Positions 4,472 to 51,410 of a DNA stretch of 64,000 nucleotides are shown piece after piece. The DNA is from an uncultured Pseudomonadota bacterium (lineage in GTDB: Bacteria > Pseudomonadota > Alphaproteobacteria > Rs-D84): positions 10,048-74,047 of the forward strand of contig CASFWA010000002.1 in NCBI GenBank assembly GCA_949298405.1. Reading direction: 5' to 3'. A model generated the notes under the pieces. That model saw only the letters and a list, made by a program, of their open reading frames with translations. It was not told the DNA's origin and did not search any database. The position numbers and the translations under genes were made by a program. Position 1 is the first letter of the stretch; the number at the start of each line of letters is the position of its first letter.

Positions 4472-5449
4472 TTAGCAAAAATCATCGAACACATCACCAC
4501 CTGTCCATTCATAACCGCGTTCTATGGTATAATATTTTTCTGCGCCTTCGTCTGTAATAAACGTTCTTATAGAGGTATGATAGAACATGTTAGATTTATA
4601 CTCTATTTTTGCTAACGCATAGCCCATACCACCACTGGCCATAACCACAATGGCTTTTCTATCCTTATCGAAATCTGCTTTTATAACTTCAGATTGATAA
4701 ACAGCATTTTTAGCAAACAGTTTGCCCTCGCTTATATTGTTCAAGTAATCTTGCAATGGTTCATCTGATACCACGGATGGACATAATGGAAATTCTGATG
4801 GAACTTTCCAGTTAACTTGCATTGCATTAGGTGTAAGCGATTGTTTTTCTATCGGCATATCTTCTTCCACTGTATCTTCTGGGCCCCACTGTTTATCATG
4901 ATACACCCACTCACCCAATTTACCATTGCCTGTCGGCACAGAATCTTCTTTGGCCCAACGTTCTAATTTTTCTTTACTGATTTTTGCTTCATCTGGCGAA
5001 ACTGTGCGCATCCAGTCAAAATTCTGGTCCACACTACCAGCTCTTAAAAGTGCAGGATTTTCCAAGAAGTTTTCAATACTGCCACAACATAATATTATAC
5101 GCTTTCTGGTTATTGGATTGTTCAGTGCGTTTTCCAGTCTAGTTGCCCAACGCAAGTTGTCTGGCCGATTATTACACTTATTTGTGTCCTTGTGGTCTAT
5201 TACATGCGTGGACGATGGCTTTGGTTCAAGAAAGGCCTCTGCAACAATCTGATGAACACGCACAGAATTGATATACATATATCCATTCGTTTCGTTTTTG
5301 GTTCCAAAGGTCCAAACTTCATCTAGTTTGCGTTTTATCTTGTTGGGCCGAGCATGCCGCATTACCGCACCATTATTACGCACAGAGTACCTTTCGTCCT
5401 TGAACACACATTCCTTTTCTTGGTCAAAAAAAGAGTCAACACTTATCAT
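4472..5449 (-). CDS. HNH homing-type endonuclease with NUMOD4-like N-terminal region
   Basis: 325 aa. RYSVRNNGAV resembles NUMOD4. HVIDHKDTNKCNNRPDNLRWATRLEN is an HNH_3 nuclease motif. The gene starts 3 nt after the integrase stop, in an operon. Confidence 0.6.
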   Translation of the reverse strand: MISVDSFFDQEKECVFKDERYSVRNNGAVMRHARPNKIKRKLDEVWTFGTKNETNGYMYINSVRVHQIVAEAFLEPKPSSTHVIDHKDTNKCNNRPDNLRWATRLENALNNPITRKRIILCCGSIENFLENPALLRAGSVDQNFDWMRTVSPDEAKISKEKLERWAKEDSVPTGNGKLGEWVYHDKQWGPEDTVEEDMPIEKQSLTPNAMQVNWKVPSEFPLCPSVVSDEPLQDYLNNISEGKLFAKNAVYQSEVIKADFDKDRKAIVVMASGGMGYALAKIEYKSNMFYHTSIRTFITDEGAEKYYTIERGYEWTGGDVFDDFC

Positions 5450-5451
5450 TA

Positions 5452-6639
5452 TTATCCCCTTATATCCTCTGGCACAAATTCCAACATTTTATCGGCGGCA
5501 CGTTGGATAGAATCACGCACAGGGTCCATTGTTAAACGGGCATATACCTGGGTTGCTGCGCTGGTTTTATCGCCCAGGGCCTTGCCCACAATATGTAAAC
5601 TGGCACCGGTTATGGCCTGGTAACTGCCGAATGTACGACGCAGGTCATGGAACCGCAGGTCTTCGATATTCGCACGTTTTAACAATGCATACCAGGGACG
5701 GTGAAAGTCCTCGACATGACCGCTTTTGCTGCCGGCACGACTTGAAAACACCCAGTCATCAGTCGCATAAGTGCGCATATCTTGCAATATTTCAAGTGCC
5801 TGCGATATTAATGGGATGCGTTGCGGGTCACCATTTTTAGAATCCGGGAACAGCACAAACCCTAGATTCAAATCAACATTTGACCAGCGCATGGACAGCA
5901 TATTTTGCCGACGCTGACCAATAAACAGCGATAACAGCACATAGTTTTTAAACGCCTCGTTCGGCTCTTCGGCCAGTGCTGCAAAGAAACGTGTTATTTC
6001 ATCTGGCTGCAGGAAACGTTCACGGGACTTTTCACGAAACATTTTTATCCCGACCGCAGGATTACCATGATGTGCCGGATACCCCCATTCTATGGCCTTG
6101 TTATACATGTGTTTTATCAATCCAAGTGTCCGGTTGGCGGTGTATAAACTTATCTTGCTGCGCAACCCCGAATGTATCCGTTCCAGGTCAACACGCGTTA
6201 TGCTTATCATTTTACGGTTGTGCAATTCGGGCAGGTAATTGCGAAACATTGATTCAACCTTGGCCTGTGATTTTTGCTTTGTATACACCAAAACGTGCCG
6301 TGGGTAATACTGAGTATCAAAGAACTGTTTTAATGTCATATCACGCAGGGCTTCGTTGCGTTCTTGGCCGGGGTCTGTTCCGTGGTCGGCAACGGTCCGC
6401 AATTCACGTGCTTTCATCCGGGCTTCGACCAATTTTGTAACACCAACACGACCAATTTTTACACGCTTTGGCACCCCCAGGAACTTGGTATAGAAATAGT
6501 ACGTTTTTGTCCCGCCATAGGTCACAATGATGCACAAACCCGGTTGTCCATTGTCATAATAAGTCATTGGACGCTTGTCGGTCGGAATTGGCAATTCGGC
6601 CAACGTTTTTTCTGTAAAATTTATATGGTTATTGGTCAT
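5452..6639 (-). CDS. int: tyrosine site-specific integrase (phage/P4-type)
   Basis: 395 aa. N-terminal arm-binding-like region. C-terminal catalytic HDLRRTF and a Tyr in ATQVYARLT. Lies adjacent to the tRNA-Asn fragment. Confidence 0.85.
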   Translation of the reverse strand: MTNNHINFTEKTLAELPIPTDKRPMTYYDNGQPGLCIIVTYGGTKTYYFYTKFLGVPKRVKIGRVGVTKLVEARMKARELRTVADHGTDPGQERNEALRDMTLKQFFDTQYYPRHVLVYTKQKSQAKVESMFRNYLPELHNRKMISITRVDLERIHSGLRSKISLYTANRTLGLIKHMYNKAIEWGYPAHHGNPAVGIKMFREKSRERFLQPDEITRFFAALAEEPNEAFKNYVLLSLFIGQRRQNMLSMRWSNVDLNLGFVLFPDSKNGDPQRIPLISQALEILQDMRTYATDDWVFSSRAGSKSGHVEDFHRPWYALLKRANIEDLRFHDLRRTFGSYQAITGASLHIVGKALGDKTSAATQVYARLTMDPVRDSIQRAADKMLEFVPEDIRG

Positions 6640-7294
6640 CGTTTATATCCATTGTTGCTATTTTTTCCCAATCAACCCCGTATTTGTCGACAATATCTTG
6701 CATATCTGCAGAAAGATAAAAACTACGCTCGCTACGAATGTCGGTCGGAAATCGAGATGGATTTTTCCGATCATCATGTTCTTGTTGCCAAACTTCAAAA
6801 TCAGAAACAAAAATCCCCCTTTGAACAAAAGTGTCCGCAATCGGATTTTCTTGTAACTTATATCTATCTATGTTGAAAGAGTTCCTTTCCTTTTCCGGTG
6901 TCGAATAATAACAAATAAAACTTGCCAAGTATTTTAACTCGTCTACATTCAAATGCTCGAGCATGTTAGCATACCTGGCGAACAAATTTGATTTACGGTC
7001 GGGTTCTTCCACTTTTCCCATCCCTGAAATTAATCGAGCCAACAAAATCAAATTTCTTTTTGCAACCCCCTCTTGAACGGAACGAGAAAACCTTGCCAAC
7101 ATGCTAAAAAAATCATCCCGATGGATGGCAGTTAGGTCTCCACTGCGAATGTTTGTTAACAACACCTCCCTAGCCATGTTTATGTTTTTCTGACGCCATG
7201 CATCATATACGTGCTGCATTGCGCCACCAACCACCGGCACAGCACCCAAAACACTATCAACTATCTGCGGTAATACAGCATTTTCTTTTTCCAT
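6629..7294 (-). CDS. hypothetical protein, first gene of the hyp-int-HNH operon
   Basis: 221 aa. Overlaps the integrase start by 11 nt. Confidence 0.45.
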   Translation of the reverse strand: MEKENAVLPQIVDSVLGAVPVVGGAMQHVYDAWRQKNINMAREVLLTNIRSGDLTAIHRDDFFSMLARFSRSVQEGVAKRNLILLARLISGMGKVEEPDRKSNLFARYANMLEHLNVDELKYLASFICYYSTPEKERNSFNIDRYKLQENPIADTFVQRGIFVSDFEVWQQEHDDRKNPSRFPTDIRSERSFYLSADMQDIVDKYGVDWEKIATMDINDDQ

Positions 7295-7499
7295 TTCAAT
7301 CTCTTTTTGCTACCAAGGTCCGTGTTGCAAATGCCCCAGTCCGTGAGACGTCCGTTTGTCTTTATTTGTTACCTATTTGCTACCAACGGCGTTTTTTGCT
7401 ACCAATTTCCATTAATCTTCATCAAGTATAACATAGCCTATAACCCGCAGAAAATCAAGGAAAATTAAACTTTATCAATTTCTATCAATCTTAATAAAA

Positions 7500-7549
7500 A
7501 CGGACTGTTAATCCGTATGTCACTGGTTCGAGTCCAGTTGCCCGAGCCA
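7500..7549 (+). other. 3' 50-nt fragment of tRNA-Asn(GTT) (anticodon arm to CCA); integration-site (att) copy at the island boundary
   Basis: ACGGA-CTGTTAA-TCCGT (anticodon GTT), variable ATGTC, T-arm ACTGG-TTCGAGT-CCAGT, acceptor TGCCCGA-G-CCA. No matching 5' acceptor/D-arm lies upstream, so it is not a complete tRNA. Confidence 0.75.
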
Positions 7550-7556
7550 AGAATTT

Positions 7557-7580
7557 CCGCAGATTTCTGCGGATTTTTTA
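7557..7580 (+). terminator. rho-independent terminator (native tRNA-Asn terminator)
   Basis: CCGCAGA-TT-TCTGCGG followed by ATTTTTTA. Confidence 0.7.
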
Positions 7581-7791
7581 TTGTCTGTCTTCTACCCCGT
7601 TTTTATGCAAAATTGGATGAAAATGGCTCTAAATTGCCGGAGGAGTAAAACAAAAACACATATTTGACACACAGTAATATATACCATTACTGCTGAAATT
7701 TTATATATAAATAATATTTTTATAGAATTGCAATTTTTATTATTTTTATCTACAATTAAGACCGAAAAGAAACTATAAATAGGATATCAGG

Positions 7792-8613
7792 ATGGCAGGA
7801 AAAACAATCCAAATTTATTTACCAAGCGGAAAACTTAAAGGTATAAAAAAAGCTTCTATTACAACAGAAAAACCAATCGTTTTTCAAGTTCCTCTTACAG
7901 AAGTTAGTAATAATATTGATAAACTAGATTTTAATGGTATTTATATTTTAGTTGATAGTATAACAACTAACAAACCTCAACTTTATATTGGTAAAGGGAA
8001 AGTCAAACATAGAATACAACAACATATAAAAAAGAAAAGCTTTTGGAATACGGTTTTTGCAGTTAAACTTGATAGCATTAATGGTTTTAGTGATACAGAT
8101 ATTTCATATCTTGAGTATTATTTTATAAAAAAAGCTAAAGGCTTAACCAATATTATAACAGAAGAAAATAAACAAATCCCACAGATTCCAAAATTACAAG
8201 ATGAAAAATTGGACGAATTAACGTGTTATATTGAAACAATTGAGTTTATATTATCAACCCTGGGCTTAAAATGTTTTCAAAATGAAGACGAAAATAATAC
8301 TTTCACATGCCAAGATAAATACGGAAGTTTTGGCCAAGGAAAATATAATTCAGATTCAGGGCTTCTATTATTAAAGGGCTCTAAATGTAAAATGGCATTA
8401 CATAAAGGAACCAAAAATTTACCTAAAAGAACGGATTTAATTAAAAAAGGAATTTTAAAAGAAAAGGATGGATTCTATATCTTAACAGAAGATACAACTT
8501 TCTCTTCTGTTTCATCCGCAGCTCAAATCGTATTGGCAAGACGAGCTAATGGATGGACCGAGTGGAAAAATAAAGAAGGAAAAACATTGGATGAATTGTA
8601 TAGAATAAAATAA
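7792..8613 (+). CDS. GIY-YIG nuclease with C-terminal DUF4357-like domain
   Basis: 273 aa. GIYILVDS...LYIGKG is the GIY-YIG core. The C-terminal half resembles DUF4357. Local GC is extremely low. Confidence 0.65.
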   Translation: MAGKTIQIYLPSGKLKGIKKASITTEKPIVFQVPLTEVSNNIDKLDFNGIYILVDSITTNKPQLYIGKGKVKHRIQQHIKKKSFWNTVFAVKLDSINGFSDTDISYLEYYFIKKAKGLTNIITEENKQIPQIPKLQDEKLDELTCYIETIEFILSTLGLKCFQNEDENNTFTCQDKYGSFGQGKYNSDSGLLLLKGSKCKMALHKGTKNLPKRTDLIKKGILKEKDGFYILTEDTTFSSVSSAAQIVLARRANGWTEWKNKEGKTLDELYRIK

Positions 8614-8696
8614 AACAACTTAAATAAAAGTAATAAAATCTTATGATTTTTGTTTAAAAATCAAAAGATACTAATTAATAAAAAGGATTTTATAAA

Positions 8697-9530
8697 TTGT
8701 TAAAAAAATATATCAGTATTTATATGACCCAAGATGCATATCGCTCTTTTCGTGCCATATGCCCTAGGAAACTATTTTCTAAATTGATAATTTCTAACAT
8801 TCAATATAGTAATGAAACGTGTCATAAAAAATATCGCAGAAATTTTCAGTTTATACTTTCTGTTCCAAATACAAGTATTGATTCTATATGGAGAATAATA
8901 AATTCAAACATCAATATAAAACAAGAGATTCAATCTGATTGGGAACCTAAAACTACTACCGCACCACAAGTTACAGACAGTATAAAAAAAGACATCCTGC
9001 CTATAACCCAACATACACTACACAAACAATCAGCGACAAAATCTGAACAAGTTGCTGTTAACAAAAAAACTTTTAAAACATCTGAACTTACACCTAAAAT
9101 GGTGGAAGACATTCTTGGAATAGATTACAACCTTTTGCTGGACTCTTACTTTTATTACAATTCTAAATATAGCAACTACTTTGATAGTTATCTAGACGAA
9201 TTATACAATATTAAGGATATATTGGAAAACAATTCCATGTATAAAGAATACAAGCTAGCTTTCATTACATATGCCATAATTATAGAAGAAGAAGATTATA
9301 TAAAGTCTCCTACATTATACGACCCAAATAATTACGATGGAAGTATACCTTGGAATATCTACCCTAAGTACACAACTTTTATTTCATATAATTTAAAAAC
9401 AGAAACTTTTGAAAAATATCCACGAGGTTGGATAAAAATATACGGTTCGCATTTTGATGATATCAAGACTCTATTCAATAGTAAAAATGAAGAAATATTG
9501 TCGGCATTTAAAAATGAAAAAACACGATAA
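8697..9530 (+). CDS. hypothetical protein (AT-rich orphan)
   Basis: 277 aa. TTG start with AAGGA 10 nt upstream; an alternative ATG is at 8724. No motif recognised. Confidence 0.4.
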   Translation: MLKKYISIYMTQDAYRSFRAICPRKLFSKLIISNIQYSNETCHKKYRRNFQFILSVPNTSIDSIWRIINSNINIKQEIQSDWEPKTTTAPQVTDSIKKDILPITQHTLHKQSATKSEQVAVNKKTFKTSELTPKMVEDILGIDYNLLLDSYFYYNSKYSNYFDSYLDELYNIKDILENNSMYKEYKLAFITYAIIIEEEDYIKSPTLYDPNNYDGSIPWNIYPKYTTFISYNLKTETFEKYPRGWIKIYGSHFDDIKTLFNSKNEEILSAFKNEKTR

Positions 9531-9577
9531 AACTACCTTATTTATATGTTGTTTCTAAATTGCCAAAGATATTTTAT

Positions 9578-11269: not shown

Positions 11270-12622
11270 TCAAAACCTTTGCATCATAGAAAATTCTATA
11301 CCCCATTTATCAAATTCACGTTGCCATATATTTGAATCACGGCGCATATAACTGAATGTGAAAGTCGGAACAAAATTCCATACCTCCAATTTACTATTTG
11401 AAATTGATACCGCATACCTCTGTGTTAAACTGCTTTCTGCAATTTGTTCAAACTTTCCGTCTTTTACAACCCAGCGCATATCATCATAATCCTGCAAATA
11501 TACAGATACATCAAAATACACATTAAACTGTGCTGGCAAATCTATCCCAAAACCTATTCCTAAACTTGGTCGCCAATTTGAATACACTCTATCCTTTGTA
11601 ACCTCTCTTGCAACTCCTAGTCGCAACATTACGTATTTTGAGGAATCAAACGAATGTATAAAGCGACTTGTAGCGTCATACGTTTGACCATCTAAAATCA
11701 ATCCGAAATCATCGTATGTATTATCACTAACAAGAAACGACAGTTGCCCAGATGTCTTACGTGTAAAATCATAGTTTATATTTAAACGCCCACCAGCAGA
11801 CCAATTATAAGGGTTCCAACCATACCACCGCCTGCTTGCCGTTGCAGCAAACCATACATCACCGTTTTCCCATACATACCTTGGTCCTGAACTTACAAAC
11901 AATAACAAGTCATCAAAATCGTGCTTATTATAGATATTTGCATAAATATTCGCATCCGATTTCCAACGCCACTGTTCTGACAATCGAAACTCGTAATCAC
12001 CACCCAAAACGAAGTTAAACCCAACTGCTTTTTCTGGCTCAGGTAATTGTCTACATAATGGTCCAAAAATCGTATCAACACATTCTTCACCACCAACAGA
12101 AGTGTTAATATTATTATCTGGTGCCATGCCTAAGTTTAAATACACATTCCAGTTTTTGTTCTGACGAATTACGTATCTCATATAATTCATCACATTTTTT
12201 ATATCGTCTGGTAAGTCTTTACCCGCCATGGCACGACGTAACTGATAATCCGCCTGGCGCCATTGTTTTGTATTCATATAGCAAATTGCTAATTCAAATC
12301 GAACTCTTGCTAAATCTGGATATTTATCAAGAATCTTGCGATATATCTTTATCGCTGTTTCATAATCTTTGTTTGCAGTAGCAACACGCCCACGTAAGAA
12401 ATTTTGCTCAATATTTAATGCAACGCTTTCAAATTCTGGTAGGTTATCTAATATAGATTCTGCCTGTTCTATTTCACCCTTGTCTATCAACGCACCAGTT
12501 ATTTTTAGTGCATCAACTGCAGACATAGTAATTTCTTTCGAATTATCTTTCACCTTATGCGATTCTGCCTGGCATAAGCCAGGCAGAACGATAATGATAA
12601 AAGCAAACAATAATCTCTTCAC
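11270..12622 (-). CDS. Slam-like (surface lipoprotein assembly modulator, DUF560) outer-membrane protein
   Basis: 450 aa. Signal peptide, then N-terminal TPR-like repeats, then a C-terminal region of alternating hydrophobic beta-strand pattern ending in a terminal Phe (…MMQRF). Flanked by two lipoprotein genes with TbpB/fHbp-like C-terminal barrels. Confidence 0.6.
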   Translation of the reverse strand: MKRLLFAFIIIVLPGLCQAESHKVKDNSKEITMSAVDALKITGALIDKGEIEQAESILDNLPEFESVALNIEQNFLRGRVATANKDYETAIKIYRKILDKYPDLARVRFELAICYMNTKQWRQADYQLRRAMAGKDLPDDIKNVMNYMRYVIRQNKNWNVYLNLGMAPDNNINTSVGGEECVDTIFGPLCRQLPEPEKAVGFNFVLGGDYEFRLSEQWRWKSDANIYANIYNKHDFDDLLLFVSSGPRYVWENGDVWFAATASRRWYGWNPYNWSAGGRLNINYDFTRKTSGQLSFLVSDNTYDDFGLILDGQTYDATSRFIHSFDSSKYVMLRLGVAREVTKDRVYSNWRPSLGIGFGIDLPAQFNVYFDVSVYLQDYDDMRWVVKDGKFEQIAESSLTQRYAVSISNSKLEVWNFVPTFTFSYMRRDSNIWQREFDKWGIEFSMMQRF

Positions 12623-13530
12623 TATTTCACACCAAAAGCAACATCCATTTTAATACCAGATGTATGCTCTTTAAAATTCACAGTTCCTACTGCTTCTGTC
12701 GGCACACCAATTTCTGTTTTAGGTCCATAATAATTAACTGACATATTTGCACCAGAAGTTATAAATTTATTACCCCCGACATCAAATTTCACTAAATCTT
12801 CTTTGTTCTTATAATTACTAAATTCTATTGTACCTGCGGTATCATCTTTTACTGTGACATCATACCAGTTATCAAATGTAGCGCCAAGTGTACTAACACC
12901 CGTTTCTTTATCAAAGTTTAATACAGCATCACCATCTAATTTTACAAATTCTGAATCTGCACTTGCACCACCAACCGCACGCCCAGAAAATTGCACGTCT
13001 TTTACAATATCCGCAACATCTATCCTTTGTGTTGCATTACCACTAACAAAAACTTTATCTTCTATACCAGCACGATTTGCCTCATTTTCATTTGTAATTT
13101 CATACGTACCAAAGTCCGAATAAGACAAACCTAATTCTTTTCCCAAAGAAGAATAATCCAAACTTTCATCCGCAAATTCTATACGCACGCTAGAAATTCT
13201 ATTTCCACGCGAAGGTCTGGTTCCCCTATCAGATTGCACAATATTTTCTGCATCATTTCCCCTGTCTGTACTCGGCACATAATTTACATCATCACCACGT
13301 TCATCAGTTGGGTCACGTTCAGATGTATCGCCCCTGTCTTCACTTGGTTCTGGATTTGTTTCACCCCGATTGTCACTTGGTAAATAATTTGAACTATTTC
13401 CACGACCTGATGTCGGTATATGCTTAGTACAACCTTCGGCAGAATCAAGGCATGCTGGGGAATATCCACCGCCACCACCACCACAAGCAGCCAAAATAAC
13501 AGTCAGCATTAAACAAGTTATTTTTTTCAT
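12622..13530 (-). CDS. surface lipoprotein (SLP) with TbpB/fHbp-like C-terminal handle-barrel domain
   Basis: 302 aa. Lipobox ILAAC followed by a Gly run. The C-terminal domain ends ...DVAFGVK (FGAK-type ending) and is paralogous to the 13688-14932 product. Confidence 0.65.
   Translation of the reverse strand: MKKITCLMLTVILAACGGGGGGYSPACLDSAEGCTKHIPTSGRGNSSNYLPSDNRGETNPEPSEDRGDTSERDPTDERGDDVNYVPSTDRGNDAENIVQSDRGTRPSRGNRISSVRIEFADESLDYSSLGKELGLSYSDFGTYEITNENEANRAGIEDKVFVSGNATQRIDVADIVKDVQFSGRAVGGASADSEFVKLDGDAVLNFDKETGVSTLGATFDNWYDVTVKDDTAGTIEFSNYKNKEDLVKFDVGGNKFITSGANMSVNYYGPKTEIGVPTEAVGTVNFKEHTSGIKMDVAFGVK
12863..12897. repeat. inverted repeat core A (35 bp identical, within ~90 bp of ~80% identity), inside SLP gene 1
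   Basis: TACCAGTTATCAAATGTAGCGCCAAGTGTACTAAC; its exact reverse complement is at 14648-14682. Confidence 0.85.
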
Positions 13531-13687
13531 TTTCTTCCCCTTGCCTTTACATAATGATTATACCCTATATCTTTTTTATAAACAAGAACTTGTTTTTTAC
13601 GCCTGATGACTTTATTCCCTTGAAAAAGAAATCAGTCCTATACTATACTCAAATATATAAATAGTCCTGTTAGTTAGGAGGATATCC

Positions 13688-14932
13688 ATGAAAAAATTTG
13701 CTTTCTTATTTATTGTGAATGCTTTGGCTGCTTGTAGTTTAAGTAATAGCAATGTTGACGGTTATTCTGCATACCCTGGCAACAGGAATCAATATAATCC
13801 TGGTTTAGACCTACCTTATAAAAATACTGCACAGAATAGCAATAAAGAAATTACAGGAATGGTCTCAAGTTCTTATGACCAGTTAAATAGATTTATAGCA
13901 TACAGGTTATCTGGTTATACCAACTACCCTATTAGCAATTATCAAGAAATTGCAAATTTAGCTGTATGGCTGACTTCCGATGATAGAACTGCATCAGATA
14001 TAAAAGATAAGTTTTATGAGAACTCTACCTTATTACACAATGCAATGTATGTAATTAACAAAAGTTTAGCAAGTTGCGTTAAATTTGTATCTTCTTATTC
14101 TGGCGAAGATGTGGGTAATTGTTTTGTAAAATGGCGCGCAGATAACGCGGTCACTTTTGATAAAGCAGCGCAATCTATTCGTGAAAATGCCGACTTTATA
14201 AATATACAGTCCGCGGAATTTTCTACAAACGATGATATAGTATTAAAGTTCGTTATTGATGACGGCGAAGAAAATAATGGCCCTGGTAAAATAACTGCTA
14301 TAAAAGTCGCAGACCAACAATATAACCGTATTGAAAATACTAATACATTTGAAAATGAAGAATCTATTTTAACTTATAATTCTCTTGGTAAAGAGTTGGG
14401 ACTTTCTTATTCTGATTTCGGAACCTACAAAGTAGTAAACAAAATCAATAACGAAATTTTAACTGATAATACGCCTTTTGCAGGTGGTTATTCCGCAAAA
14501 GAAATTACAGATATTGCACAAAATATCGAATTTACAGGCAAGGCCATCGGCACCGTTTCAAAAATGGCAGAAGATGGCGAGCAAAAGAAACTAGAAAAAA
14601 TTGATATTGCTGGAAATGCTGCGCTAAACTTTGACCCAGAGACGGGCGTTAGTACACTTGGCGCTACATTTGATAACTGGTACGATGTCATAGTAAAAAA
14701 TGATTCTGCGGGTACAATAGAATTTAGTAATTATAAGAACAATGCTAACGAATATGACATGCAGGTATCTGGTGATATGATAGAAGATAAAATAACTGCA
14801 AGCGGTGCAAATATGGATGTAAATTATTATGGTCAATTTCCAGAAAATAAAATACCAACCGAGGCATCTGGATTAGTTCAATACAAAGACGCAAATGGTA
14901 TAAAGTTAGACATGGCATTTGGCGCGAAGTAA
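13688..14932 (+). CDS. surface lipoprotein (SLP) paralog with TbpB/fHbp-like C-terminal domain
   Basis: 414 aa. Lipobox ALAAC. Shares LGKELGLSYSDFGTY, ETGVSTLGATFDNWYDV, AGTIEFSNYKN and C-terminal ...DMAFGAK with the divergent 12622-13530 gene. A strong AGGAGG RBS is present. Confidence 0.65.
   Translation: MKKFAFLFIVNALAACSLSNSNVDGYSAYPGNRNQYNPGLDLPYKNTAQNSNKEITGMVSSSYDQLNRFIAYRLSGYTNYPISNYQEIANLAVWLTSDDRTASDIKDKFYENSTLLHNAMYVINKSLASCVKFVSSYSGEDVGNCFVKWRADNAVTFDKAAQSIRENADFINIQSAEFSTNDDIVLKFVIDDGEENNGPGKITAIKVADQQYNRIENTNTFENEESILTYNSLGKELGLSYSDFGTYKVVNKINNEILTDNTPFAGGYSAKEITDIAQNIEFTGKAIGTVSKMAEDGEQKKLEKIDIAGNAALNFDPETGVSTLGATFDNWYDVIVKNDSAGTIEFSNYKNNANEYDMQVSGDMIEDKITASGANMDVNYYGQFPENKIPTEASGLVQYKDANGIKLDMAFGAK
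14648..14682. repeat. inverted repeat core B (reverse complement of 12863-12897), inside SLP gene 2
   Basis: GTTAGTACACTTGGCGCTACATTTGATAACTGGTA. Confidence 0.85.
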
Positions 14933-14937: not shown

Positions 14938-16722
14938 TTACGATTTCATAGTCTTATCATCTGACTTGAACTGCATATCGTATAACGTTTTATATGCACC
15001 ACATTCACGGTTTAACAAGTCTTTATGAGTCCCCATTTCTACAATTTCACCATTGTTTATTACAACTATCTTTGATGCGTTCCTTATTGTAGAAAGTCTA
15101 TGTGCTATTACAAAAACTGTCTTATCCTGCATCAGGTTCTCTATCGCTTTTTGTACAACCGATTCCGCCTTGTTATCAAGCGCTGATGTTGCTTCATCCA
15201 AAACCAATATCGGTGCATTCTTTAAAAACGCGCGTGCAATAGCAACCCTTTGTTTCTGCCCACCAGAAAGTAAAATTCCTCGTTCCCCAATTTCTGTGTC
15301 TAAACCATCTTTTAAACTTGCAATAAATTTATCTAAATATGCCATTTTTACTGCTTTCTGTAATTCTTCTTCGCTAGCATCTTTATTACCCAGCATTATA
15401 TTTTCGCGAATTGTACCAGCGAATAAAAAATTATCTTGAAAAACCACACCTATATTCTGCCGAAGCGAATGTAATGTGAAGTCCCTTATATCTGTACCAT
15501 CAATGCAAATTTGCCCCGATGTCACATCATAAAATCTTGGCAGAAGACTTACTAACGTAGTCTTTCCACCACCAGAATTACCAACCAATGCTATTGTTTC
15601 ACCCTGCTTTACAGTTAAATTTATATTTTTTAAAATGGGAACCCCTTGATTATATTCAAACCCTAAATTCTTAAATTCTATCAACTTATGAGTGGCAGGC
15701 ATTTCTTTTGCATTAGGTTTATTTGTTATAGCGGGTTTCGCATTCAAAATATCGAATACTCTATCGATTGCCATAAAAGACATCAAAACAGAATTGTAAT
15801 TAGAACCTATACTTTTCATAGGTGTATACAACATAACCAACGCAGTTAAAAACGATACAAAGTTACCTGCAGAAATTTTACCTTCTAAAATTAAAAAAGA
15901 ACCAAACCAAATAGATAAACCTATACCAATAGACAATATGACATGCATAACCGGTGTCACCCAACGAGTACGCTGCAACATTTTTATCTTTAACCTAAAC
16001 ACACCGTCTAAAACACTATTAAACTTACCTTTTTGATGTTCAGATAAATTATAAGCAATAACCGTCTTGTTCCCAGAATAAGATTCATTATATGCAGTCA
16101 AAAGTGCCGCATCGGCCGCAATAGACTGACTCATAACAGAGTCCACCTTTTTACGCAAAGAACTCATCGGTAAGAAAGCACCTATTAAAATCGCAACACA
16201 TAAAAATGCTAATTGCCACGAATTATAAAATAATACTGCTATCAGTGATATTGCGGTAAACAACTTCTGAACAAATGTTTTTAAATTTGTTAATAATCCT
16301 GCACAGGCCAAATCTGCATTATTATTAAACATAAATATTATGTCACCAGAATTCTTGGTGTTAAAGAAGTTAGTTTCAAAATCTAACATTTTCTTATATA
16401 AATCTAACTTTAATAAATTCGTTATTTTTGCCCCAACCCAAGTATTTAAATAATTCGCAGCGTAAGTTAGTCCTCCTTGAATACAAGTAAACGTAATTAT
16501 AGCAAGCGGTATGTACCATGCGGTCTGTACCGATTTTTCTACCATAACTAAATCCATATACGGTTTTAGCGACAATGCAATTACTGCATCTAATGAACCG
16601 ATAGGAATTGTTATAAGTAAAGACATTAACCCAGGAAACCAATATGGCTTTATATACGGCCACATTCGCTTATAATTCTTTACAAACATATTCTGACTTA
16701 AACGCTGTTTTATTTTACTCAT
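14938..16722 (-). CDS. ABC exporter, fused permease/ATPase (MsbA-like lipid/polysaccharide exporter)
   Basis: 594 aa. Six N-terminal TM segments. Walker A GNSGGGKTT, ABC signature LSGGQKQR, Walker B ILVLDEATSALD. Confidence 0.85.
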   Translation of the reverse strand: MSKIKQRLSQNMFVKNYKRMWPYIKPYWFPGLMSLLITIPIGSLDAVIALSLKPYMDLVMVEKSVQTAWYIPLAIITFTCIQGGLTYAANYLNTWVGAKITNLLKLDLYKKMLDFETNFFNTKNSGDIIFMFNNNADLACAGLLTNLKTFVQKLFTAISLIAVLFYNSWQLAFLCVAILIGAFLPMSSLRKKVDSVMSQSIAADAALLTAYNESYSGNKTVIAYNLSEHQKGKFNSVLDGVFRLKIKMLQRTRWVTPVMHVILSIGIGLSIWFGSFLILEGKISAGNFVSFLTALVMLYTPMKSIGSNYNSVLMSFMAIDRVFDILNAKPAITNKPNAKEMPATHKLIEFKNLGFEYNQGVPILKNINLTVKQGETIALVGNSGGGKTTLVSLLPRFYDVTSGQICIDGTDIRDFTLHSLRQNIGVVFQDNFLFAGTIRENIMLGNKDASEEELQKAVKMAYLDKFIASLKDGLDTEIGERGILLSGGQKQRVAIARAFLKNAPILVLDEATSALDNKAESVVQKAIENLMQDKTVFVIAHRLSTIRNASKIVVINNGEIVEMGTHKDLLNRECGAYKTLYDMQFKSDDKTMKS

Positions 16723-16730
16723 AACAGTCT

Positions 16731-17858
16731 CTACTTTGCTTTATAGTTATTAATAATTGCCTGAACCAACTGCATTTCTGTGAAATCGGCAGCGTCATAT
16801 TCTCTGACCTTATCGCTAACATTCGGTAAATGATGTACAGAATACAAATCTTTTATTCTTGCTGATGATATATGCGGTTTAAAAATTCTAAAATCTGTAT
16901 ATATTAAATCCATAGGACGATTGGCAGCAGTTAATAATACAGATAACCCAGACGCTAAACCTATGATTCCAGCAGACCGCTCTGCCAATGCAAATATTTC
17001 TGCCATATTTGTATCAAATGATACAGAATCTGAAAAAATATTGTTAATATCATTTACAAAAACATCATACCCTATTCTTTTAAACTCTTTTATCAGCAAA
17101 TGCCAAAAAGCATTAGACATTCCAGATAAAGAATTTGCACCAGGTAAAATAATAACGAATGGGTGCTTAAATTTATCTGCAAGTTTTCTATCTATTTTTA
17201 ATGCAACAGACTTATCAATTTTAGGTTTTTGCATTACAGATTTTTTAGTTAAATCAAAATCTTTGCATATATAATCATAAAAATTTGCCAGACCTGTTTC
17301 TTCATATATTCTGTTAAGATTTTCTGCGATTTTATATGTAGGACAAAATAACTTTCTGCCCTTATATTCAACACTTTCACAATCCAAGGCATCTTGAAGG
17401 TTATTTTTATCTATTTCAATGTATTTAATATCAATGCCTCTTGGTAAAAACATCTTATAAAAAGGAATATATTTTTTCTGCCAAACTATCAATAAAGGCT
17501 TTCTGGTGCCGCTGGCTTTTACCCACGATTTCAAATGGGTCAAGTATATATAACTTTCCCCGATATTATGTCGAATTATATAAACCCCATCATATTTTTT
17601 ACTGATTTGGTTAAATAACTTATTAAGAATTTTTCGTCTAAGGTTTTCCCTATATACCGGCAGGCAGCAAACTTTACTTATAGCATAATGATTTTTTATG
17701 CGCCTTTTATAAAGTCTAAGCCCTAACAGCCTGAAATCTTGTGTACCACGTGACGACTTTTTAAAACGCAATACGCCGCATAATATCGAATAAGTCTTTT
17801 CATTACCCCAATCATGATTATATGATGCGGAATTATAAATAATATTTTTAATCATCAC
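16731..17858 (-). CDS. putative glycosyltransferase (GT9-like C-terminal half)
   Basis: 375 aa. The C-terminal VIILPGANS...AGIIGLASGLSVLLTAANRPMDLIY resembles the heptosyltransferase (GT9) donor-binding region. Confidence 0.35.
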   Translation of the reverse strand: MMIKNIIYNSASYNHDWGNEKTYSILCGVLRFKKSSRGTQDFRLLGLRLYKRRIKNHYAISKVCCLPVYRENLRRKILNKLFNQISKKYDGVYIIRHNIGESYIYLTHLKSWVKASGTRKPLLIVWQKKYIPFYKMFLPRGIDIKYIEIDKNNLQDALDCESVEYKGRKLFCPTYKIAENLNRIYEETGLANFYDYICKDFDLTKKSVMQKPKIDKSVALKIDRKLADKFKHPFVIILPGANSLSGMSNAFWHLLIKEFKRIGYDVFVNDINNIFSDSVSFDTNMAEIFALAERSAGIIGLASGLSVLLTAANRPMDLIYTDFRIFKPHISSARIKDLYSVHHLPNVSDKVREYDAADFTEMQLVQAIINNYKAK

Positions 17859-17869
17859 TTCATATACTC

Positions 17870-18991
17870 TTAATTCTTATATTTCTGGTATACCCTTTCA
17901 GAAATCAAATCTCTTTCCCGTGCGATACCTAAAATATCATTCTCAAAATCGTAAGTTGTGCTGTAAAACTCGTTTAAAAAATCAGACGCAGCATTATTAT
18001 CTAAACCTATATCTATCCTTACACAATCTTTATAAACAGGTATATGTCGCCATACCTTTTCATCGTATAACATATCAAGAACAGGCAAATACAAAACACC
18101 CTTGTGCCATTTCAAAACAAATGCCCAGTGTCTTGAAAGCGCAATATCTGGCATGTGAATTACCATGGAATTATCTATATAAAATGTTTTTAAATTTAAC
18201 TGCTCTGTATCCCTTAGAAAAGTAAATACCCAATCAACATTGAAGTTAAACTCGTCTACATATTTTGTTGAATACTTTTCAATTAAATACTCGTTATAAC
18301 GCCAACCTATATTTTTCTTTACTACATCTAAACATTTCTGAGGATTTCTAACATACACAACCCCAAAAGACCAATGTACACCAAAAGATTTTGATACAAA
18401 CATATCGAAGTTAAAGCAATCTAAATCATTTTCTTCCGCATAAAATTCGGCTTTTTTCAGTGCTTCTGCTATTAATTCTGGCTTGGTCAAAATCATTATA
18501 TCGTCTGCATCAATATTATAAGTCCTTTTATAGTTATGTCTTGCAGCATGAACGAATGGGGTTAACATAGAATACGCAATTCTATGCCATAACTTCTGCC
18601 TTTCAACTTCATGCAATAATAATGGAACTTCTTTTTTTAATGTTTTCCTGTCACTTTTTATAAACGCGAAATCTTCGTTATAAAAGAAGCACGGTTTCTT
18701 AAAAATGCCTTCTTTCATTTTTTTATTGTCGCATACAAAATAGATAAAAGCGTCCATTCTGGCAATTATGTCCATCCAATGCTGAATACAATCAAAACTG
18801 GTTGTATGAACACGATGAACTTTTAAATAAAAAACCCGCTGTCCAGGTTTAGGCTTATGCCTTCTGCAACGTTCTATTTTCAATTTACCGTTTTGGTGTG
18901 TGTACTGAAAAACAGGAATTCCTAAAAGATAGAATTTTCTTATTTTTTCCCCATTTACTAATCTTACTTTTACTTTTTTTACAATTTTCAT
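17870..18991 (-). CDS. hypothetical protein within the polysaccharide cluster
   Basis: 373-aa ORF on the same strand as, and tightly packed with, its neighbours. Confidence 0.45.
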   Translation of the reverse strand: MKIVKKVKVRLVNGEKIRKFYLLGIPVFQYTHQNGKLKIERCRRHKPKPGQRVFYLKVHRVHTTSFDCIQHWMDIIARMDAFIYFVCDNKKMKEGIFKKPCFFYNEDFAFIKSDRKTLKKEVPLLLHEVERQKLWHRIAYSMLTPFVHAARHNYKRTYNIDADDIMILTKPELIAEALKKAEFYAEENDLDCFNFDMFVSKSFGVHWSFGVVYVRNPQKCLDVVKKNIGWRYNEYLIEKYSTKYVDEFNFNVDWVFTFLRDTEQLNLKTFYIDNSMVIHMPDIALSRHWAFVLKWHKGVLYLPVLDMLYDEKVWRHIPVYKDCVRIDIGLDNNAASDFLNEFYSTTYDFENDILGIARERDLISERVYQKYKN

Positions 18992-19002
18992 AACATTTAC
19001 CC

Positions 19003-19932
19003 CTAATTATTTTCACCAGTCATTTCAAAAGCTTGGTCCCAAGTATCTATTCTTTTTACCCCCCTTTTTAAAACATGTGCCGGATTTCCGCCAATCACCG
19101 TATAAGATTCTTCAAATGGCTTTACAACATTACTCTGCGCAGCAACAATCGTATAATCTGGCAGGCTTGCGTTTTTCCCTATAAAACTGCCCGTCCCTAT
19201 CCAACAATTATTGCCTATTCGCAGGACTCTTTTACGATGTCCATAATTTATTACTTTGTTTGTTTCAACATCTATTATCGGATGCGCGTCACTTACATAT
19301 ATCTTTGATTCAGCGGCAAGTCTTACATTATTTCCAATAAAGCACTTTAATCCGTATTCACACATATGAATTATAACCAAAGGATTTACGACCAAGTTAT
19401 CTCCTATTACTAATTCGCAATCTCCCATAGTCATAAAAATCACAAGACAAACTATTTTCTTGTCGTAAATCTTATTAGTAAAATTACCAAGCGAGAACTT
19501 ATGACCATCCCCAAGCATAGTAAGTTCTAATCTTTCTATTATCTTAGGCGCGCGAATTTTTATGGTGTTATTATTACCTTCTATTGTAAGAATTAAACCT
19601 GGTATTATTTTTGTCGTTTCAACATAATCACCAACCGCATCATTCCAAACTAATAACTTATTATTTTCCCCATGAAATACATAGTCGCTTGGACCAGCGG
19701 GTGGTGTTATTGCCTGTCTGAAATCGCTTTCTACTTTTGATAATTCTGACTTTGTTGTAAATGTTTCAAGTTTTGGGTAAATATCATTTACACCTTTTCT
19801 TAAATCTTCAATTTGTCCGCGCAAATCGTCTATCGGGTTATACATTAGTTTTTCACGAAAAGACTTTCTGCGTTCTTCATTTGGTATGAAACGACAAAGT
19901 GTATCTACCCAAAACTTTTTCATTATAATCAC
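19003..19932 (-). CDS. left-handed beta-helix (hexapeptide) acyl/acetyltransferase
   Basis: 309 aa. C-terminal hexapeptide repeats (IGNNCWIGTGSFIGKNASLPDYTIVAAQSNV). Overlaps the rpe-like gene by 4 nt. Confidence 0.6.
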   Translation of the reverse strand: MIIMKKFWVDTLCRFIPNEERRKSFREKLMYNPIDDLRGQIEDLRKGVNDIYPKLETFTTKSELSKVESDFRQAITPPAGPSDYVFHGENNKLLVWNDAVGDYVETTKIIPGLILTIEGNNNTIKIRAPKIIERLELTMLGDGHKFSLGNFTNKIYDKKIVCLVIFMTMGDCELVIGDNLVVNPLVIIHMCEYGLKCFIGNNVRLAAESKIYVSDAHPIIDVETNKVINYGHRKRVLRIGNNCWIGTGSFIGKNASLPDYTIVAAQSNVVKPFEESYTVIGGNPAHVLKRGVKRIDTWDQAFEMTGENN

Positions 19933-20582
19933 CTTAACTTTTCTACAATTTCTTTGTAAGTACGCAGTCCTCTTTTCTTACCGAACATTTCTGACGCAGT
20001 ACCACATACAAATTCTTCAATACCACGCGCAGACCACTTTGAAATTACATCTGGTGACACACAACCGTCTAAACGAATAGAAAATTTTCTATTTGGCATA
20101 TCTGCTAAAAACGCTAATTTTTTTTCAACTTCTGGTACAGCAGACTGACCCGCAAACCCAGGATTCACCCGCATAACCAATAAAGTATCTATTAATGGAA
20201 ACAAATTCTGAACTTCTTCAATTCTTGTTCCTGGGTTTATAGCAAGCCCCGCTTTTCTGCCGTTTAATTTTATTTCTTGCAAATATTTAGCAGAATCCCC
20301 AGATTCATAATGCACATAAATTATATCCGCACCATTTTTAAAAGCATAAGGTAAATGAATGCTAGGTACTTTTACCATTAAATGTGCATCTAGTGGTTTA
20401 GAAGTCATCTTTCTGACCGCCGCAAAATCTGCCCAAGACAAAGCAAAGTTCGGCACGAACTCCCCGTCCATAATATCCATGTGATATTGGTCTATTCCTG
20501 CTGCATCCATATCGGCAATTTCCGAACGGAAACTGCCGAAGTCTGCGCACATAATCGAAGGGCACAATATTTTATACGCCAT
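19929..20582 (-). CDS. rpe: ribulose-phosphate 3-epimerase family enzyme (Rpe/AlsE-like)
   Basis: The ORF track gives 19929-20606. The likely true start is MAYKILCPSIMCADFG at 20582 (Rpe N-terminal motif). HMDIMDGEFVPN, VNPGFAGQ and GCVSPDV are Rpe signatures. Confidence 0.75.
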   Translation of the reverse strand: MAYKILCPSIMCADFGSFRSEIADMDAAGIDQYHMDIMDGEFVPNFALSWADFAAVRKMTSKPLDAHLMVKVPSIHLPYAFKNGADIIYVHYESGDSAKYLQEIKLNGRKAGLAINPGTRIEEVQNLFPLIDTLLVMRVNPGFAGQSAVPEVEKKLAFLADMPNRKFSIRLDGCVSPDVISKWSARGIEEFVCGTASEMFGKKRGLRTYKEIVEKLR

Positions 20583-20583
20583 T

Positions 20584-21480
20584 TTATGCCCTTTTAGGTT
20601 TAGCAATCATAAATTCGCAACCAGAAACATCTAGTTTTTCATTTGGTTCTAATAATATCGCTGTACCAGGTAAAATCTTTATACCGTCAATTTCTTTTTC
20701 ACCACGCAACATTACAGCAAACGCAAACATATCCCCCTTGTTTTCAAATGTATCAACACCTTTAACAAGTTGTGTCGAATACATACGTTCTTCGATAGGT
20801 TCGCCGTCTTTATACTTTCTGGACGTTGATTTCTTATTTACATCTAAACAAGCAAGTGCTTTTTCTAATTGCAATGGTCTTTTTTTACCGTCTTTATCAA
20901 CGCGGTCATAATCATAAAAGCGATAAGTTTTTTCACAATTTTCTTCTATTTCGAAATGAAGTGAACCTGCTGTTGCAGCATGCAAAGTACCCCCAACTAT
21001 ATAAACATAATCACCTTCTTCACACGGCATTGAATCCAAAGTTTCTGCAATTTTTCCGTCTTTTATTTTCTGCTTCATATCATCAACGGATTTCGCTTTA
21101 CAACCGTTATACATTTTTCCGCTTTTAGGTGCTTCTAGTGTGTAAAAAGACTCATTCTTTCCAAAGGGTTTATTCTCTAATTCCTGAGCCTTCTTATCGT
21201 CTGGGTGTACTTGTATAGAAAGGTCGTCGTCTGCTTCAACCAATGCCATTAATATAGGCAATTCAGGATATTTGCTTAGACCATACTTGTCACGATTTTC
21301 CATAAACCAATCGTGAATGTTTTTACCTTTATCTGGTCCATAAATTATCTCGTTCTTAAATTCTTCAGTATCTATTGCTGAATACAGGTGCCCTATTTTA
21401 TGACAATTAGAACCTGAATATGGTGTCAATTTTGCTCCACCCCAAATAGTTTCGTGTACAATAGGTTTTAATATTTGCAT
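20584..21480 (-). CDS. class I mannose-6-phosphate isomerase-like cupin (ManA family)
   Basis: 298 aa. N-terminal IWGG and LSIQVHPDD are characteristic of type I PMI. Confidence 0.7.
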   Translation of the reverse strand: MQILKPIVHETIWGGAKLTPYSGSNCHKIGHLYSAIDTEEFKNEIIYGPDKGKNIHDWFMENRDKYGLSKYPELPILMALVEADDDLSIQVHPDDKKAQELENKPFGKNESFYTLEAPKSGKMYNGCKAKSVDDMKQKIKDGKIAETLDSMPCEEGDYVYIVGGTLHAATAGSLHFEIEENCEKTYRFYDYDRVDKDGKKRPLQLEKALACLDVNKKSTSRKYKDGEPIEERMYSTQLVKGVDTFENKGDMFAFAVMLRGEKEIDGIKILPGTAILLEPNEKLDVSGCEFMIAKPKRA

Positions 21481-21496
21481 GGTATGTCCTTATTTT

Positions 21497-51386: not shown

Positions 51387-51410
51387 ATTCTATATCAAAA
51401 TGAGTTTATC

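What the first reader, a model, noticed from the sequence alone, without database searches (positions are those of the whole stretch)
11270..14932. Slam-like translocator flanked by two divergent paralogous TbpB/fHbp-type surface lipoproteins in an AT-rich genome
The 450-aa protein has a signal peptide, N-terminal TPR repeats and a C-terminal beta-barrel-like domain ending in Phe, which is the Slam (DUF560) architecture. Immediately adjacent, and divergently oriented, are two lipoproteins (lipoboxes ILAAC and ALAAC). Their C-terminal ~130 aa are paralogous and end in the FGAK-type motif typical of Slam-dependent handle/8-strand-barrel SLPs; their N-terminal halves are unrelated. Slam-SLP loci are usually tied to nutrient piracy or complement evasion. 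The ligands here cannot be guessed from sequence.
Basis: partly seen in the sequence, partly recalled or inferred. Interest (0 to 1): 0.65.

Follow-up and report, generated by a model that had tools for sequence, protein, structure and literature searches.

The report
Slam translocator with two lipoprotein cargos
This is a genuine Slam (type 11 secretion) outer-membrane translocator next to two paralogous surface-lipoprotein cargo genes, in an uncultured gut alphaproteobacterium with a tiny genome; the system is a known kind, but the cargo family is unannotated and its ligands are unknown.

Summary
The three ORFs, both lipoboxes and the C-terminal FG(V/A)K endings are at the stated coordinates.

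- **Translocator:** the 450-aa protein passes Pfam's curated cut-offs for SlipAM/DUF560 (98.8 bits) and TPR_Slam.
- **Cargo sequence:** neither lipoprotein hits any Pfam, NCBIfam or PDB sequence model.
- **Corrections:** both lipoproteins lie on one side of the Slam gene. SLP-A overlaps the Slam start by 1 nt. The paralogy spans about 190-200 aa, not 130.
- **SLP-A:** its N-terminus is a disordered stalk of 12-residue P-S/T-x-D-R-G-D/N/E repeats.
- **SLP-B:** its N-terminus is a helical domain with no fold match among the listed hits.
- **Host:** relatives of Candidatus Enterousia, genomes about 1 Mb.
- **Family:** the cargo domain defines about 545 50%-identity clusters. Members sit next to Slam in 11 independent loci.
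- **Not iron piracy on present evidence:** no TonB-dependent receptor or Fur box was found in the 64 kb.
- **Unexpected:** the Slam barrel-coding tract is about 98% nucleotide-identical between species whose other genes are saturated at synonymous sites.

Verdict: a new member of a known kind, of moderate interest.

The parts
11270..12622 (-). Slam / type 11 secretion outer-membrane protein (450 aa). It has a Sec signal peptide (residues 1-19), a periplasmic TPR domain (about residues 37-157) and a DUF560 barrel (residues 158-450, ending in Phe).
   Evidence: Pfam PF04575 scores 98.8 bits (cut-off 22) and PF24575 TPR_Slam scores 39.4 (cut-off 35.2). Homologues at 52-98% identity all carry the same Pfam set. 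Some are named 'surface lipoprotein assembly modifier' by NCBI.
12622..13530 (-). SLP-A (302 aa), predicted Slam cargo lipoprotein. It has lipobox ILAAC, a poly-Gly run, a disordered repeat stalk, a 4-strand pedestal and an 8-strand barrel ending AFGVK. Its stop codon overlaps the Slam start by 1 nt.
13195..13482 (-). SLP-A stalk (residues 17-112). It contains G6, a small Cys-x8-Cys loop, then 6-7 tandem repeats of 11-12 residues, P-[ST]-x-[DN]-R-G-[DNE]-x4-5, with two RGD tripeptides.
   Evidence: RG spacing is 12, 11, 12, 12, 12, 6. No composition shuffle out of 2000 reached the observed RG count. The same periodicity is kept in 9 homologues. AF2 pLDDT is below 50.
13531..13687 (.). 157-bp divergent intergenic region that should hold the promoters of SLP-A/Slam and of SLP-B.
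   Evidence: A sigma-70-like site, TTGAAA-18-TATACT, lies at 13620-13649 upstream of SLP-B. The count of such sites is not above the shuffle expectation. A GGAGG ribosome-binding site sits before the SLP-B ATG. No Fur box was found.
13688..14932 (+). SLP-B (414 aa), predicted Slam cargo lipoprotein. It has lipobox ALAAC, a disordered tether (residues 17-45), a helical effector domain (about 46-170), an extended beta pedestal (about 171-279) and an 8-strand barrel (280-414) ending AFGAK.
13823..14197 (+). SLP-B N-terminal helical domain, with the conserved motifs SN..[IV]T.M.S, IA..A.WL and C-x14-C.
11270..12399 (-). Mosaic tract inside the Slam gene (last TPR repeat plus the whole barrel). It is 95-100% nucleotide-identical to three other species.
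   Evidence: Identity in 100-nt bins against L002, L003 and L004. Slam dS is 0.20-0.24, against 1.5-4.4 or not computable for all other shared genes.

Best explanation
The locus is a Slam / type 11 secretion module.

Proposed mechanism:
1. SLP-A and SLP-B are exported by Sec, lipidated at Cys16 and carried to the outer membrane. These steps are inferred from the lipoboxes and the established pathway.
2. Their shared C-terminal pedestal plus 8-stranded barrel is recognised by the adjacent DUF560 barrel protein. That protein threads them across the outer membrane and leaves them lipid-anchored on the cell surface. This step is inferred by homology to Neisseria Slam1/TbpB and the model in PMC9090332.
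3. The variable N-terminal parts are the effector ends presented to the environment. In SLP-A this is a roughly 95-residue disordered, acidic RG-repeat stalk. In SLP-B it is a roughly 125-residue helical domain.

Likely role: the host is an Enterousia-like (order Rs-D84) gut alphaproteobacterium with a genome of about 1 Mb. It lacks most biosynthesis and respiration and is thought to depend on partner cells (PMC12306168). No TonB-dependent receptor is nearby. The most likely role is therefore attachment to, or capture of material from, a host or partner surface, rather than transferrin- or haem-type iron piracy.

Shown here: the gene order, the Slam domain membership, the cargo fold and the conserved linkage. 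Inferred: surface exposure, Slam dependence and the role.
For: - **Slam membership:** Pfam SlipAM and TPR_Slam both score above the curated cut-offs.
- **Cargo fold:** the models are high-confidence. SLP-B has pLDDT 84.5 and SLP-A residues 113-301 score above 90.
- **Operon structure:** a 1-nt stop/start overlap joins SLP-A to Slam.
- **Conserved linkage:** members of this family lie next to Slam in the window, L001-L005, L009, L011, L012, L020 and L021. Slam identity across these ranges from about 54% to 97%.
- **Family properties:** the C-domain profile finds 545 50%-identity clusters, and the domain is always C-terminal. Of 138 sampled, 116 have a lipobox, 101 have poly-Gly after the Cys, and 135 end in an FG.K-like motif. 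One relative in 92 hits Pfam HphA_C at 8e-5.
- **Fit to the published cargo model:** the architecture matches the effector/pedestal/barrel model for T11SS cargo, which already includes disordered and helical effectors (bioRxiv 10.1101/2024.09.26.615229).
Against: - There is no experimental evidence for surface exposure or Slam dependence.
- The two lipoproteins hit no sequence model of known cargo (TbpB_B_D, Lipoprotein C, HphA_C) even at E<=10. They also give no PDB sequence hit.
- Six of 14 Slam loci show no family member within 8 kb, and three family members lie far from any Slam. Adjacency is therefore common but not obligatory.
- The 14-strand topology of the Slam barrel was not modelled.
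- The proposed adhesion or capture role rests on context only.
Confidence: 0.85

Rival explanations
1. Iron or haem piracy module. The SLPs would be TbpB/HpuA/HphA-like co-receptors or hemophores that hand a host metal source to a TonB-dependent transporter.
For: The fold family includes TbpB, LbpB, HpuA and HphA. One distant relative hits Pfam HphA_C. Six relatives give a very weak Shr-like Hb-interacting-domain hit, best E 0.38.
Against: None of the six ORFs of 590 aa or more in the 64 kb is a TonB-dependent receptor. They are an MsbA-like ABC transporter, RecG, RNase E/G, BamA, a glycosyltransferase, and one 812-aa protein with no Pfam hit. No Fur box was found within 3 mismatches. Each SLP has a single lobe. 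The Rs-D84 order, to which relatives of this organism belong, is described as fermentative and lacking respiratory chains (PMC12306168), which lowers haem demand.
Confidence: 0.1
2. The lipoproteins are ordinary periplasm-facing outer-membrane lipoproteins, or lipoproteins with a membrane-embedded 8-strand barrel. Their position next to Slam would be incidental.
Confidence: 0.05
3. Complement or immune-factor evasion proteins, like fHbp, PmSLP/fIbp or NHBA. They would bind a host regulator rather than a nutrient.
Against: The organism is a lumen or gut-associated anaerobe with no evidence of serum exposure. The SLP-A stalk is net acidic, not Arg-rich like the NHBA heparin-binding motif. There is no sequence similarity to the ligand-binding parts of fHbp or fIbp.
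Confidence: 0.1

Closest known systems
Neisseria meningitidis Slam1 with TbpB / LbpB / fHbp (Hooda 2016/2017, PMC5449769; Huynh 2022, PMC9090332)
   Same: The translocator has TPR plus DUF560 domains. The cargo are lipoproteins with a C-terminal 8-strand barrel preceded by a beta handle. Poly-Gly follows the lipidated Cys. The C-terminus has an FG.K motif. The cargo gene is adjacent to Slam.
   Different: The cargo here has a single lobe, is invisible to the TbpB_B_D and Lipoprotein C HMMs, and has no TbpA-like receptor nearby. The host is a gut alphaproteobacterium with a roughly 1-Mb genome, not a mucosal beta- or gammaproteobacterial pathogen.
NHBA (GNA2132) of Neisseria
   Different: The SLP-A disordered region is a regular 12-residue RG repeat and is net acidic, with no Arg-rich heparin-binding motif. 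SLP-A also has a 4-strand pedestal before the barrel.
Predicted T11SS cargo architectures 'disordered N-terminus' and alpha-helical effector types (bioRxiv 10.1101/2024.09.26.615229)
   Same: The three-part plan is the same: N-terminal effector, beta pedestal and C-terminal 8-strand barrel. Both disordered and helical effectors have been described.
   Different: Those cargos were found by BLAST (E<0.05) to known cargo domains. The present family gives no such Pfam-level signal and, where members are named, comes only from uncultured Alphaproteobacteria MAGs.
Hemophilin / HphA / HrpC (T11SS-1B soluble cargo; PMC8406197, PMC8560813)
   Different: HphA-type cargo is soluble (signal peptidase I) and binds haem through an N-terminal clamp. 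SLP-A and SLP-B are lipidated and have unrelated N-termini.
Xenorhabdus NilB / NilC (PMC9100927)
   Same: A T11SS outer-membrane protein paired with a lipoprotein cargo that mediates host colonisation rather than metal uptake.
   Different: No sequence relationship to NilC was detected. The host and ligand are unknown here.

Membership tests
Slam / T11SS outer-membrane protein (DUF560, PF04575) | C-terminal DUF560 barrel domain | tested here: met
   PF04575 scores E 5.4e-28 and 98.8 bits against a cut-off of 22. It covers residues 158-438 and profile positions 1-276 of 288.
Slam / T11SS outer-membrane protein (DUF560, PF04575) | N-terminal periplasmic TPR domain | tested here: met
   PF24575 TPR_Slam scores 39.4 against 35.2. 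TPR_19 scores 45.2 against 25.
Slam / T11SS outer-membrane protein (DUF560, PF04575) | Sec signal peptide and a C-terminal aromatic OMP signal | tested here: met
   Read from the sequence: MKRLLFAFIIIVLPGLCQA|ESHK, and the protein ends ...FSMMQRF. No dedicated signal-peptide predictor was available.
Slam / T11SS outer-membrane protein (DUF560, PF04575) | 14-stranded barrel topology | not tested
No solved Slam turned up by sequence search.
Slam / T11SS outer-membrane protein (DUF560, PF04575) | Translocates cognate lipoprotein to the cell surface | not testable with these tools
   Needs co-expression followed by a flow-cytometry or protease-accessibility assay.
Slam-dependent surface lipoprotein / T11SS cargo | Signal peptidase II lipobox | tested here: met
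   LTVILAAC|GGGGGG in SLP-A and IVNALAAC|SLS in SLP-B. Of 138 relatives, 116 have a lipobox.
Slam-dependent surface lipoprotein / T11SS cargo | C-terminal soluble 8-stranded beta-barrel preceded by a beta handle/pedestal | tested here: met
Slam-dependent surface lipoprotein / T11SS cargo | Sequence match to a known cargo barrel model (TbpB_B_D, Lipoprotein C/GNA1870, HphA_C) | tested here: not met
   SLP-A, SLP-B and 45 close homologues give no hit at E<=10. One of 92 distant relatives hits HphA_C at 8.1e-5. PDB sequence profiles find nothing.
Slam-dependent surface lipoprotein / T11SS cargo | Genomic linkage to a Slam gene | tested here: met
   Adjacent to Slam in 11 loci. SLP-A overlaps Slam by 1 nt.
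Slam-dependent surface lipoprotein / T11SS cargo | Slam-dependent surface exposure | not testable with these tools
   Requires an experiment.
TbpB/LbpB bipartite receptor system | Bilobed lipoprotein (two handle-barrel lobes) paired with a TonB-dependent transporter | tested here: not met
   Each SLP has one lobe. None of the six ORFs of 590 aa or more in the window is a TonB-dependent receptor.
NHBA-like | Arg-rich glycosaminoglycan-binding motif in the disordered region | tested here: not met
   The stalk composition is D 11%, E 7%, R 10% and K 1%, so it is net acidic. Arg occurs only inside the RG repeats.

The most novel reading that the evidence does not exclude
The roughly 545-cluster lipoprotein family, invisible to Pfam, is the main host- or partner-contact repertoire of the obligately dependent Rs-D84 / Enterousia-like gut alphaproteobacteria (genomes under about 1 Mb). 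All members would be exported by one conserved Slam. New effector modules, including a regular RG(D)-repeat stalk and a new helical domain, would mediate attachment to eukaryotic or bacterial partner cells. The Slam barrel itself would be exchanged between species by recombination, so that a common translocator serves fast-turning cargo cassettes.
Probability: 0.2. Interest if true: 0.65.

Novelty: new member of a known kind. Interest (0 to 1): 0.4.

Why it matters
Slam / T11SS systems have been studied almost only in mucosal pathogens and nematode symbionts. Here a complete module is kept in a genome of about 1 Mb that has shed most of its metabolism, which suggests surface lipoprotein display is central to a dependent lifestyle.

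The cargo family is missed by every current sequence model. Neighbourhood- or HMM-based censuses of T11SS cargo therefore undercount it, and a profile of the C-domain (alignment A3) would recover more than 500 clusters.

The lipoproteins are the most obvious candidates for how these uncultured gut bacteria attach to or feed from partners. They could guide enrichment, labelling or co-culture attempts.

The mosaic Slam gene is a clean natural example of inter-species exchange of a secretion component without its cargo.

Tried and rejected
- Pfam and NCBIfam scans of SLP-A and SLP-B found nothing meaningful. Scans of 47 close and 92 distant homologues found no TbpB_B_D or Lipoprotein C hit.
- Sequence and profile searches of the PDB with the Slam, alignment A2 and alignment A3 found only generic TPR proteins or noise.
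- Fur-box search: 0 matches within 3 mismatches.
- Promoter and terminator scan: counts were not above the shuffle expectation, so no regulatory claim is made.
- Tandem-repeat scan of the DNA found only a (GGT)6 tract coding the poly-Gly. The protein-level 12-mer repeats are not DNA-level repeats.
- Rfam found only three tRNAs and one tRNA fragment.
- I considered that faster protein evolution of the SLPs explains the contrast between Slam and SLP divergence. I rejected this because synonymous sites differ as well (dS 0.2 against about 1.8), and a housekeeping gene (RNase E/G) is also saturated.
Full report
**1. The observation**

| ORF | Coordinates | Length | Key features |
|---|---|---|---|
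| Slam | 11270-12622 (-) | 450 aa | GTG start, signal peptide MKRLLFAFIIIVLPGLCQA|E, ends ...MMQRF |
| SLP-A | 12622-13530 (-) | 302 aa | ...LTVILAAC|GGGGGG..., ends AFGVK |
| SLP-B | 13688-14932 (+) | 414 aa | ...IVNALAAC|SLS..., ends AFGAK |

BLASTP of the two lipoproteins gives 50% identity over about 206 columns (A110-302 against B213-414, E 5e-55). There is nothing significant N-terminal to that.

The gene order needs correcting. Both lipoprotein genes lie on the same side of the Slam gene.
- SLP-A is upstream of Slam on the same strand. Its TAG stop overlaps the Slam GTG by one base (TAGTG).
- SLP-B is transcribed divergently from SLP-A across a 157-bp gap.
- The other neighbours are a DUF362 gene downstream of Slam and a convergent MsbA-like ABC exporter after SLP-B.

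**2. The translocator**

The 450-aa protein passes Pfam's curated thresholds for PF04575 SlipAM/DUF560 (98.8 bits against 22, covering profile positions 1-276 of 288). It also passes PF24575 TPR_Slam (39.4 against 35.2), and several generic TPR models hit residues 75-135.

A search of 5.8 billion proteins found 368 relatives at E<=1e-5. The 120 best listed have 52-98% identity and all carry PF04575. NCBI already names some of them 'surface lipoprotein assembly modifier' in Alphaproteobacteria or Rickettsiales MAGs. The Slam identification is therefore secure and not new in itself. Hooda et al. 2017 reported Slam homologues in all classes of Proteobacteria (PMC5449769).

**3. The cargo**

- **No sequence-level hits.** Neither lipoprotein hits any Pfam or NCBIfam model. 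None of 47 close homologues does so at E<=10. Profiles of the family find nothing in the PDB by sequence.
- **SLP-B model** (23-sequence alignment): mean pLDDT 84.5, pTM 0.80. It shows a disordered tether (1-41), a helical domain (helices 47-168), then beta strands from 176 to 413. The last eight strands (280-413) form the barrel.
- **SLP-A model:** residues 1-112 are disordered. Residues 113-301 have pLDDT mostly above 90, with four pedestal strands and eight barrel strands.
- **Foldseek against the PDB** with SLP-B: the top 26 hits are TbpB, LbpB, fHbp or NHBA. These include TbpB C-lobe 5kkx (E 6e-7), full TbpBs, LbpB N-lobe, fHbp and NHBA-C. HphA and HpuA follow at ranks 31-35, after one unrelated DUF3598 hit.

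The cargo fold is therefore met. The sequence-model membership (TbpB_B_D, Lipoprotein C) is tested and not met.

**4. Family and linkage**

*The host organism.*
- The genome scan returned 14 Slam loci. All are from uncultured gut Alphaproteobacteria, including 'Candidatus Enterousia avistercoris', 'uncultured Rickettsiales' UMGS bins, and Hadza and Brazilian MAGs.
- One of them is a closed 958,618-bp chromosome, OZ007020.1.
- Enterousia belongs to order Rs-D84. Its members have genomes mostly under about 1 Mb and lack biosynthesis and respiration. They are proposed to be obligate symbionts or parasites (PMC12306168).

*The cargo family.* An exhaustive HMMER search with a profile of the C-terminal domain (A3) found 545 50%-identity clusters at E<=1e-3, of which 361 score <=1e-10. 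The domain is always at the C-terminus of proteins of 160-650 aa. Of the 138 representatives sampled:
- 116 have a lipobox;
- 101 have a Gly-rich run after the Cys;
- 135 end in an FG.K-like motif.

Every member that carries a name is a 'hypothetical protein' from Alphaproteobacteria MAGs. One of 92 distant members hits Pfam HphA_C at 8e-5, a thin sequence bridge to known cargo.

*Linkage to Slam.*
- Family members lie next to Slam in the window, L001-L005, L009, L011 and L012. They also do so in L020 (SLP-A-like, then SLP-B-like, then Slam, with the SLP-B-like stop overlapping the Slam start) and L021.
- L003 has four paralogues in a row.
- Other members sit among housekeeping genes (L015, L017, L019). 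Six Slam loci show none within 8 kb.
- This is the pattern known from Neisseria, where some cargo is adjacent to Slam and some is not.

**5. Mechanism**

The pathway below is the established one (Huynh et al. 2022, PMC9090332).
1. Sec export, with the protein held unfolded in the periplasm.
2. Lipidation.
3. Lol transfer to the outer membrane.
4. Recognition of a C-terminal specificity element by Slam.
5. Threading through the DUF560 barrel.
6. Flipping of the lipid anchor through a lateral gate.

The two proteins match the effector/pedestal/barrel plan proposed for T11SS cargo. That plan already includes disordered and helical effector types (bioRxiv 10.1101/2024.09.26.615229).

The effectors differ between the two proteins.
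- **SLP-A** has G6, a Cys-x8-Cys loop and 6-7 tandem repeats of 11-12 residues, P-[ST]-x-[DN]-R-G-[DNE]. RG spacing is 12, 11, 12, 12, 12, 6. No shuffle out of 2000 reached the observed RG count. The periodicity is conserved in nine homologues, with 1-5 RGD tripeptides each. The composition is net acidic.

On the ligand:
- No TonB-dependent receptor is among the six ORFs of 590 aa or more in the window. They are MsbA-like, an 812-aa protein with no Pfam hit, RecG, RNase E/G, BamA and a glycosyltransferase.
- No Fur box is present.
- The adjacent genes form a lipid A or polysaccharide-type cluster.

I therefore favour surface attachment or capture functions over iron piracy. This is inference from context.

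**6. An unexpected finding: a mosaic Slam gene**

The comparison is between the window and L002, L003 and L004. These are three other species, one of them the closed long-read chromosome.
- **The conserved tract.** The stretch from 11270 to about 12399 covers the last TPR repeat and the whole barrel. It is 95-100% nucleotide-identical in 100-nt bins.
- **The flanks.** Identity falls to 59-70% upstream of about 12400 and to 43-61% after the stop codon.
- **Slam divergence.** Whole-gene Slam dS is 0.20-0.24.
- **Other genes.** The adjacent SLP genes have dS 1.5-3.8. RNase E/G (92% amino-acid identity) has dS 2.8. Other shared genes are saturated or not computable.
- **By domain.** At protein level the barrel is 99% identical, the TPR domain 89%, and the first 36 residues 29-37%.

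The simplest reading is a recent inter-species recombination or transfer of the translocator barrel without its cargo. Because the same structure appears in three independent assemblies, the shared tract is unlikely to be an assembly artefact. Contig joins across a shared tract cannot be fully excluded.

**7. Comparison, novelty and verdict**

The locus works like, and the translocator is a member of, the Slam / T11SS family. The cargo belongs to the Slam-SLP class by fold, lipidation, C-terminal motif and linkage. It is not a member of the TbpB_B_D, Lipoprotein C or HphA_C sequence families.

It is a new member of a known kind. Interest comes from three things: the reduced-genome host, the size of a cargo family that current models miss, and the two undescribed effector modules. 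The mosaic Slam gene adds to it. I score interest at 0.4.

My confidence that this is a functional Slam-SLP export module is about 0.85. Confidence in any specific ligand is low.

Noticed in passing
window 11270-12399 (-), compared with L002/L003/L004 8085-9358: The Slam barrel-coding tract is 95-100% nucleotide-identical to three other species. Their other shared genes, including RNase E/G, are saturated at synonymous sites (dS 0.2 against 1.5-4.4). There are sharp breakpoints inside the TPR region and at the stop codon. It looks like recent inter-species exchange of the translocator without its cargo.
   Followed up: partly
window 13195-13482 (-), SLP-A residues 17-112: A disordered stalk made of 6-7 tandem 11-12-residue repeats, P-[ST]-x-[DN]-R-G-[DNE], with two RGD tripeptides. 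The periodicity is conserved in homologues, which have 1-5 RGD each. The repeats are not visible at DNA level.
   Followed up: partly
window 13466-13484: A (GGT)6 trinucleotide tract encodes the poly-Gly run after the lipidated Cys of SLP-A. It is in frame, so slippage would change linker length rather than switch expression.
   Followed up: no
window 13823-13870 (+); alignments A1, A2, A4 and A5: The motif SN..[IV]T.M.S lies about 30-40 residues after the lipobox Cys. It is nearly invariant across most of the roughly 545-cluster family but absent from the SLP-A subgroup. Its role is unknown.
   Followed up: no
window 5452-9571: A phage-type integrase (5452-6639) sits near a 46-nt tRNA 3' fragment (7494-7539, Rfam 26.6 bits), which is followed by a hairpin and T-run. 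The low-GC (29%) stretch 7547-9571 carries a DUF4357 gene and a 277-aa ORF and is absent from the otherwise syntenic L001. This is probably a small integrated element beside the Slam locus.
   Followed up: partly
L001 9354-13030: The closest relative has a 3.7-kb insertion between Slam and the DUF362 gene. By reading the translations, it appears to encode a TetR-like regulator, a flavodoxin-like protein, a hydrolase-like protein, a small secreted protein and a cupin-like lipoprotein. No family search was run on these ORFs.
   Followed up: no
L003 1954-7867: The closed 958-kb chromosome carries four paralogues of the SLP family in a row upstream of Slam, against two in the window. This shows cassette-like expansion.
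   Followed up: partly
window 29753-32191 (+): An 812-aa ORF has no Pfam hit at 1e-5 and lies in a region of strong positive AT skew. It is the largest unannotated protein in the window.
   Followed up: no
window 14938-23405 (-): A surface-glycan-type cluster lies next to SLP-B. It contains an MsbA-like ABC exporter, two unknown proteins of about 375 aa, a hexapeptide transferase, ribulose-phosphate epimerase, a PMI-like protein, and an NTP-transferase/kinase fusion. More glycosyltransferases lie at 50547-55137 in very low-GC DNA (26-31%).
   Followed up: no
window 5455-6639 compared with L001 15456-17350: The integrase gene is only 70% nucleotide-identical to its L001 counterpart, while the gene next to it (4763-5488) is 99% identical. 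This is another local mosaic boundary.
   Followed up: no
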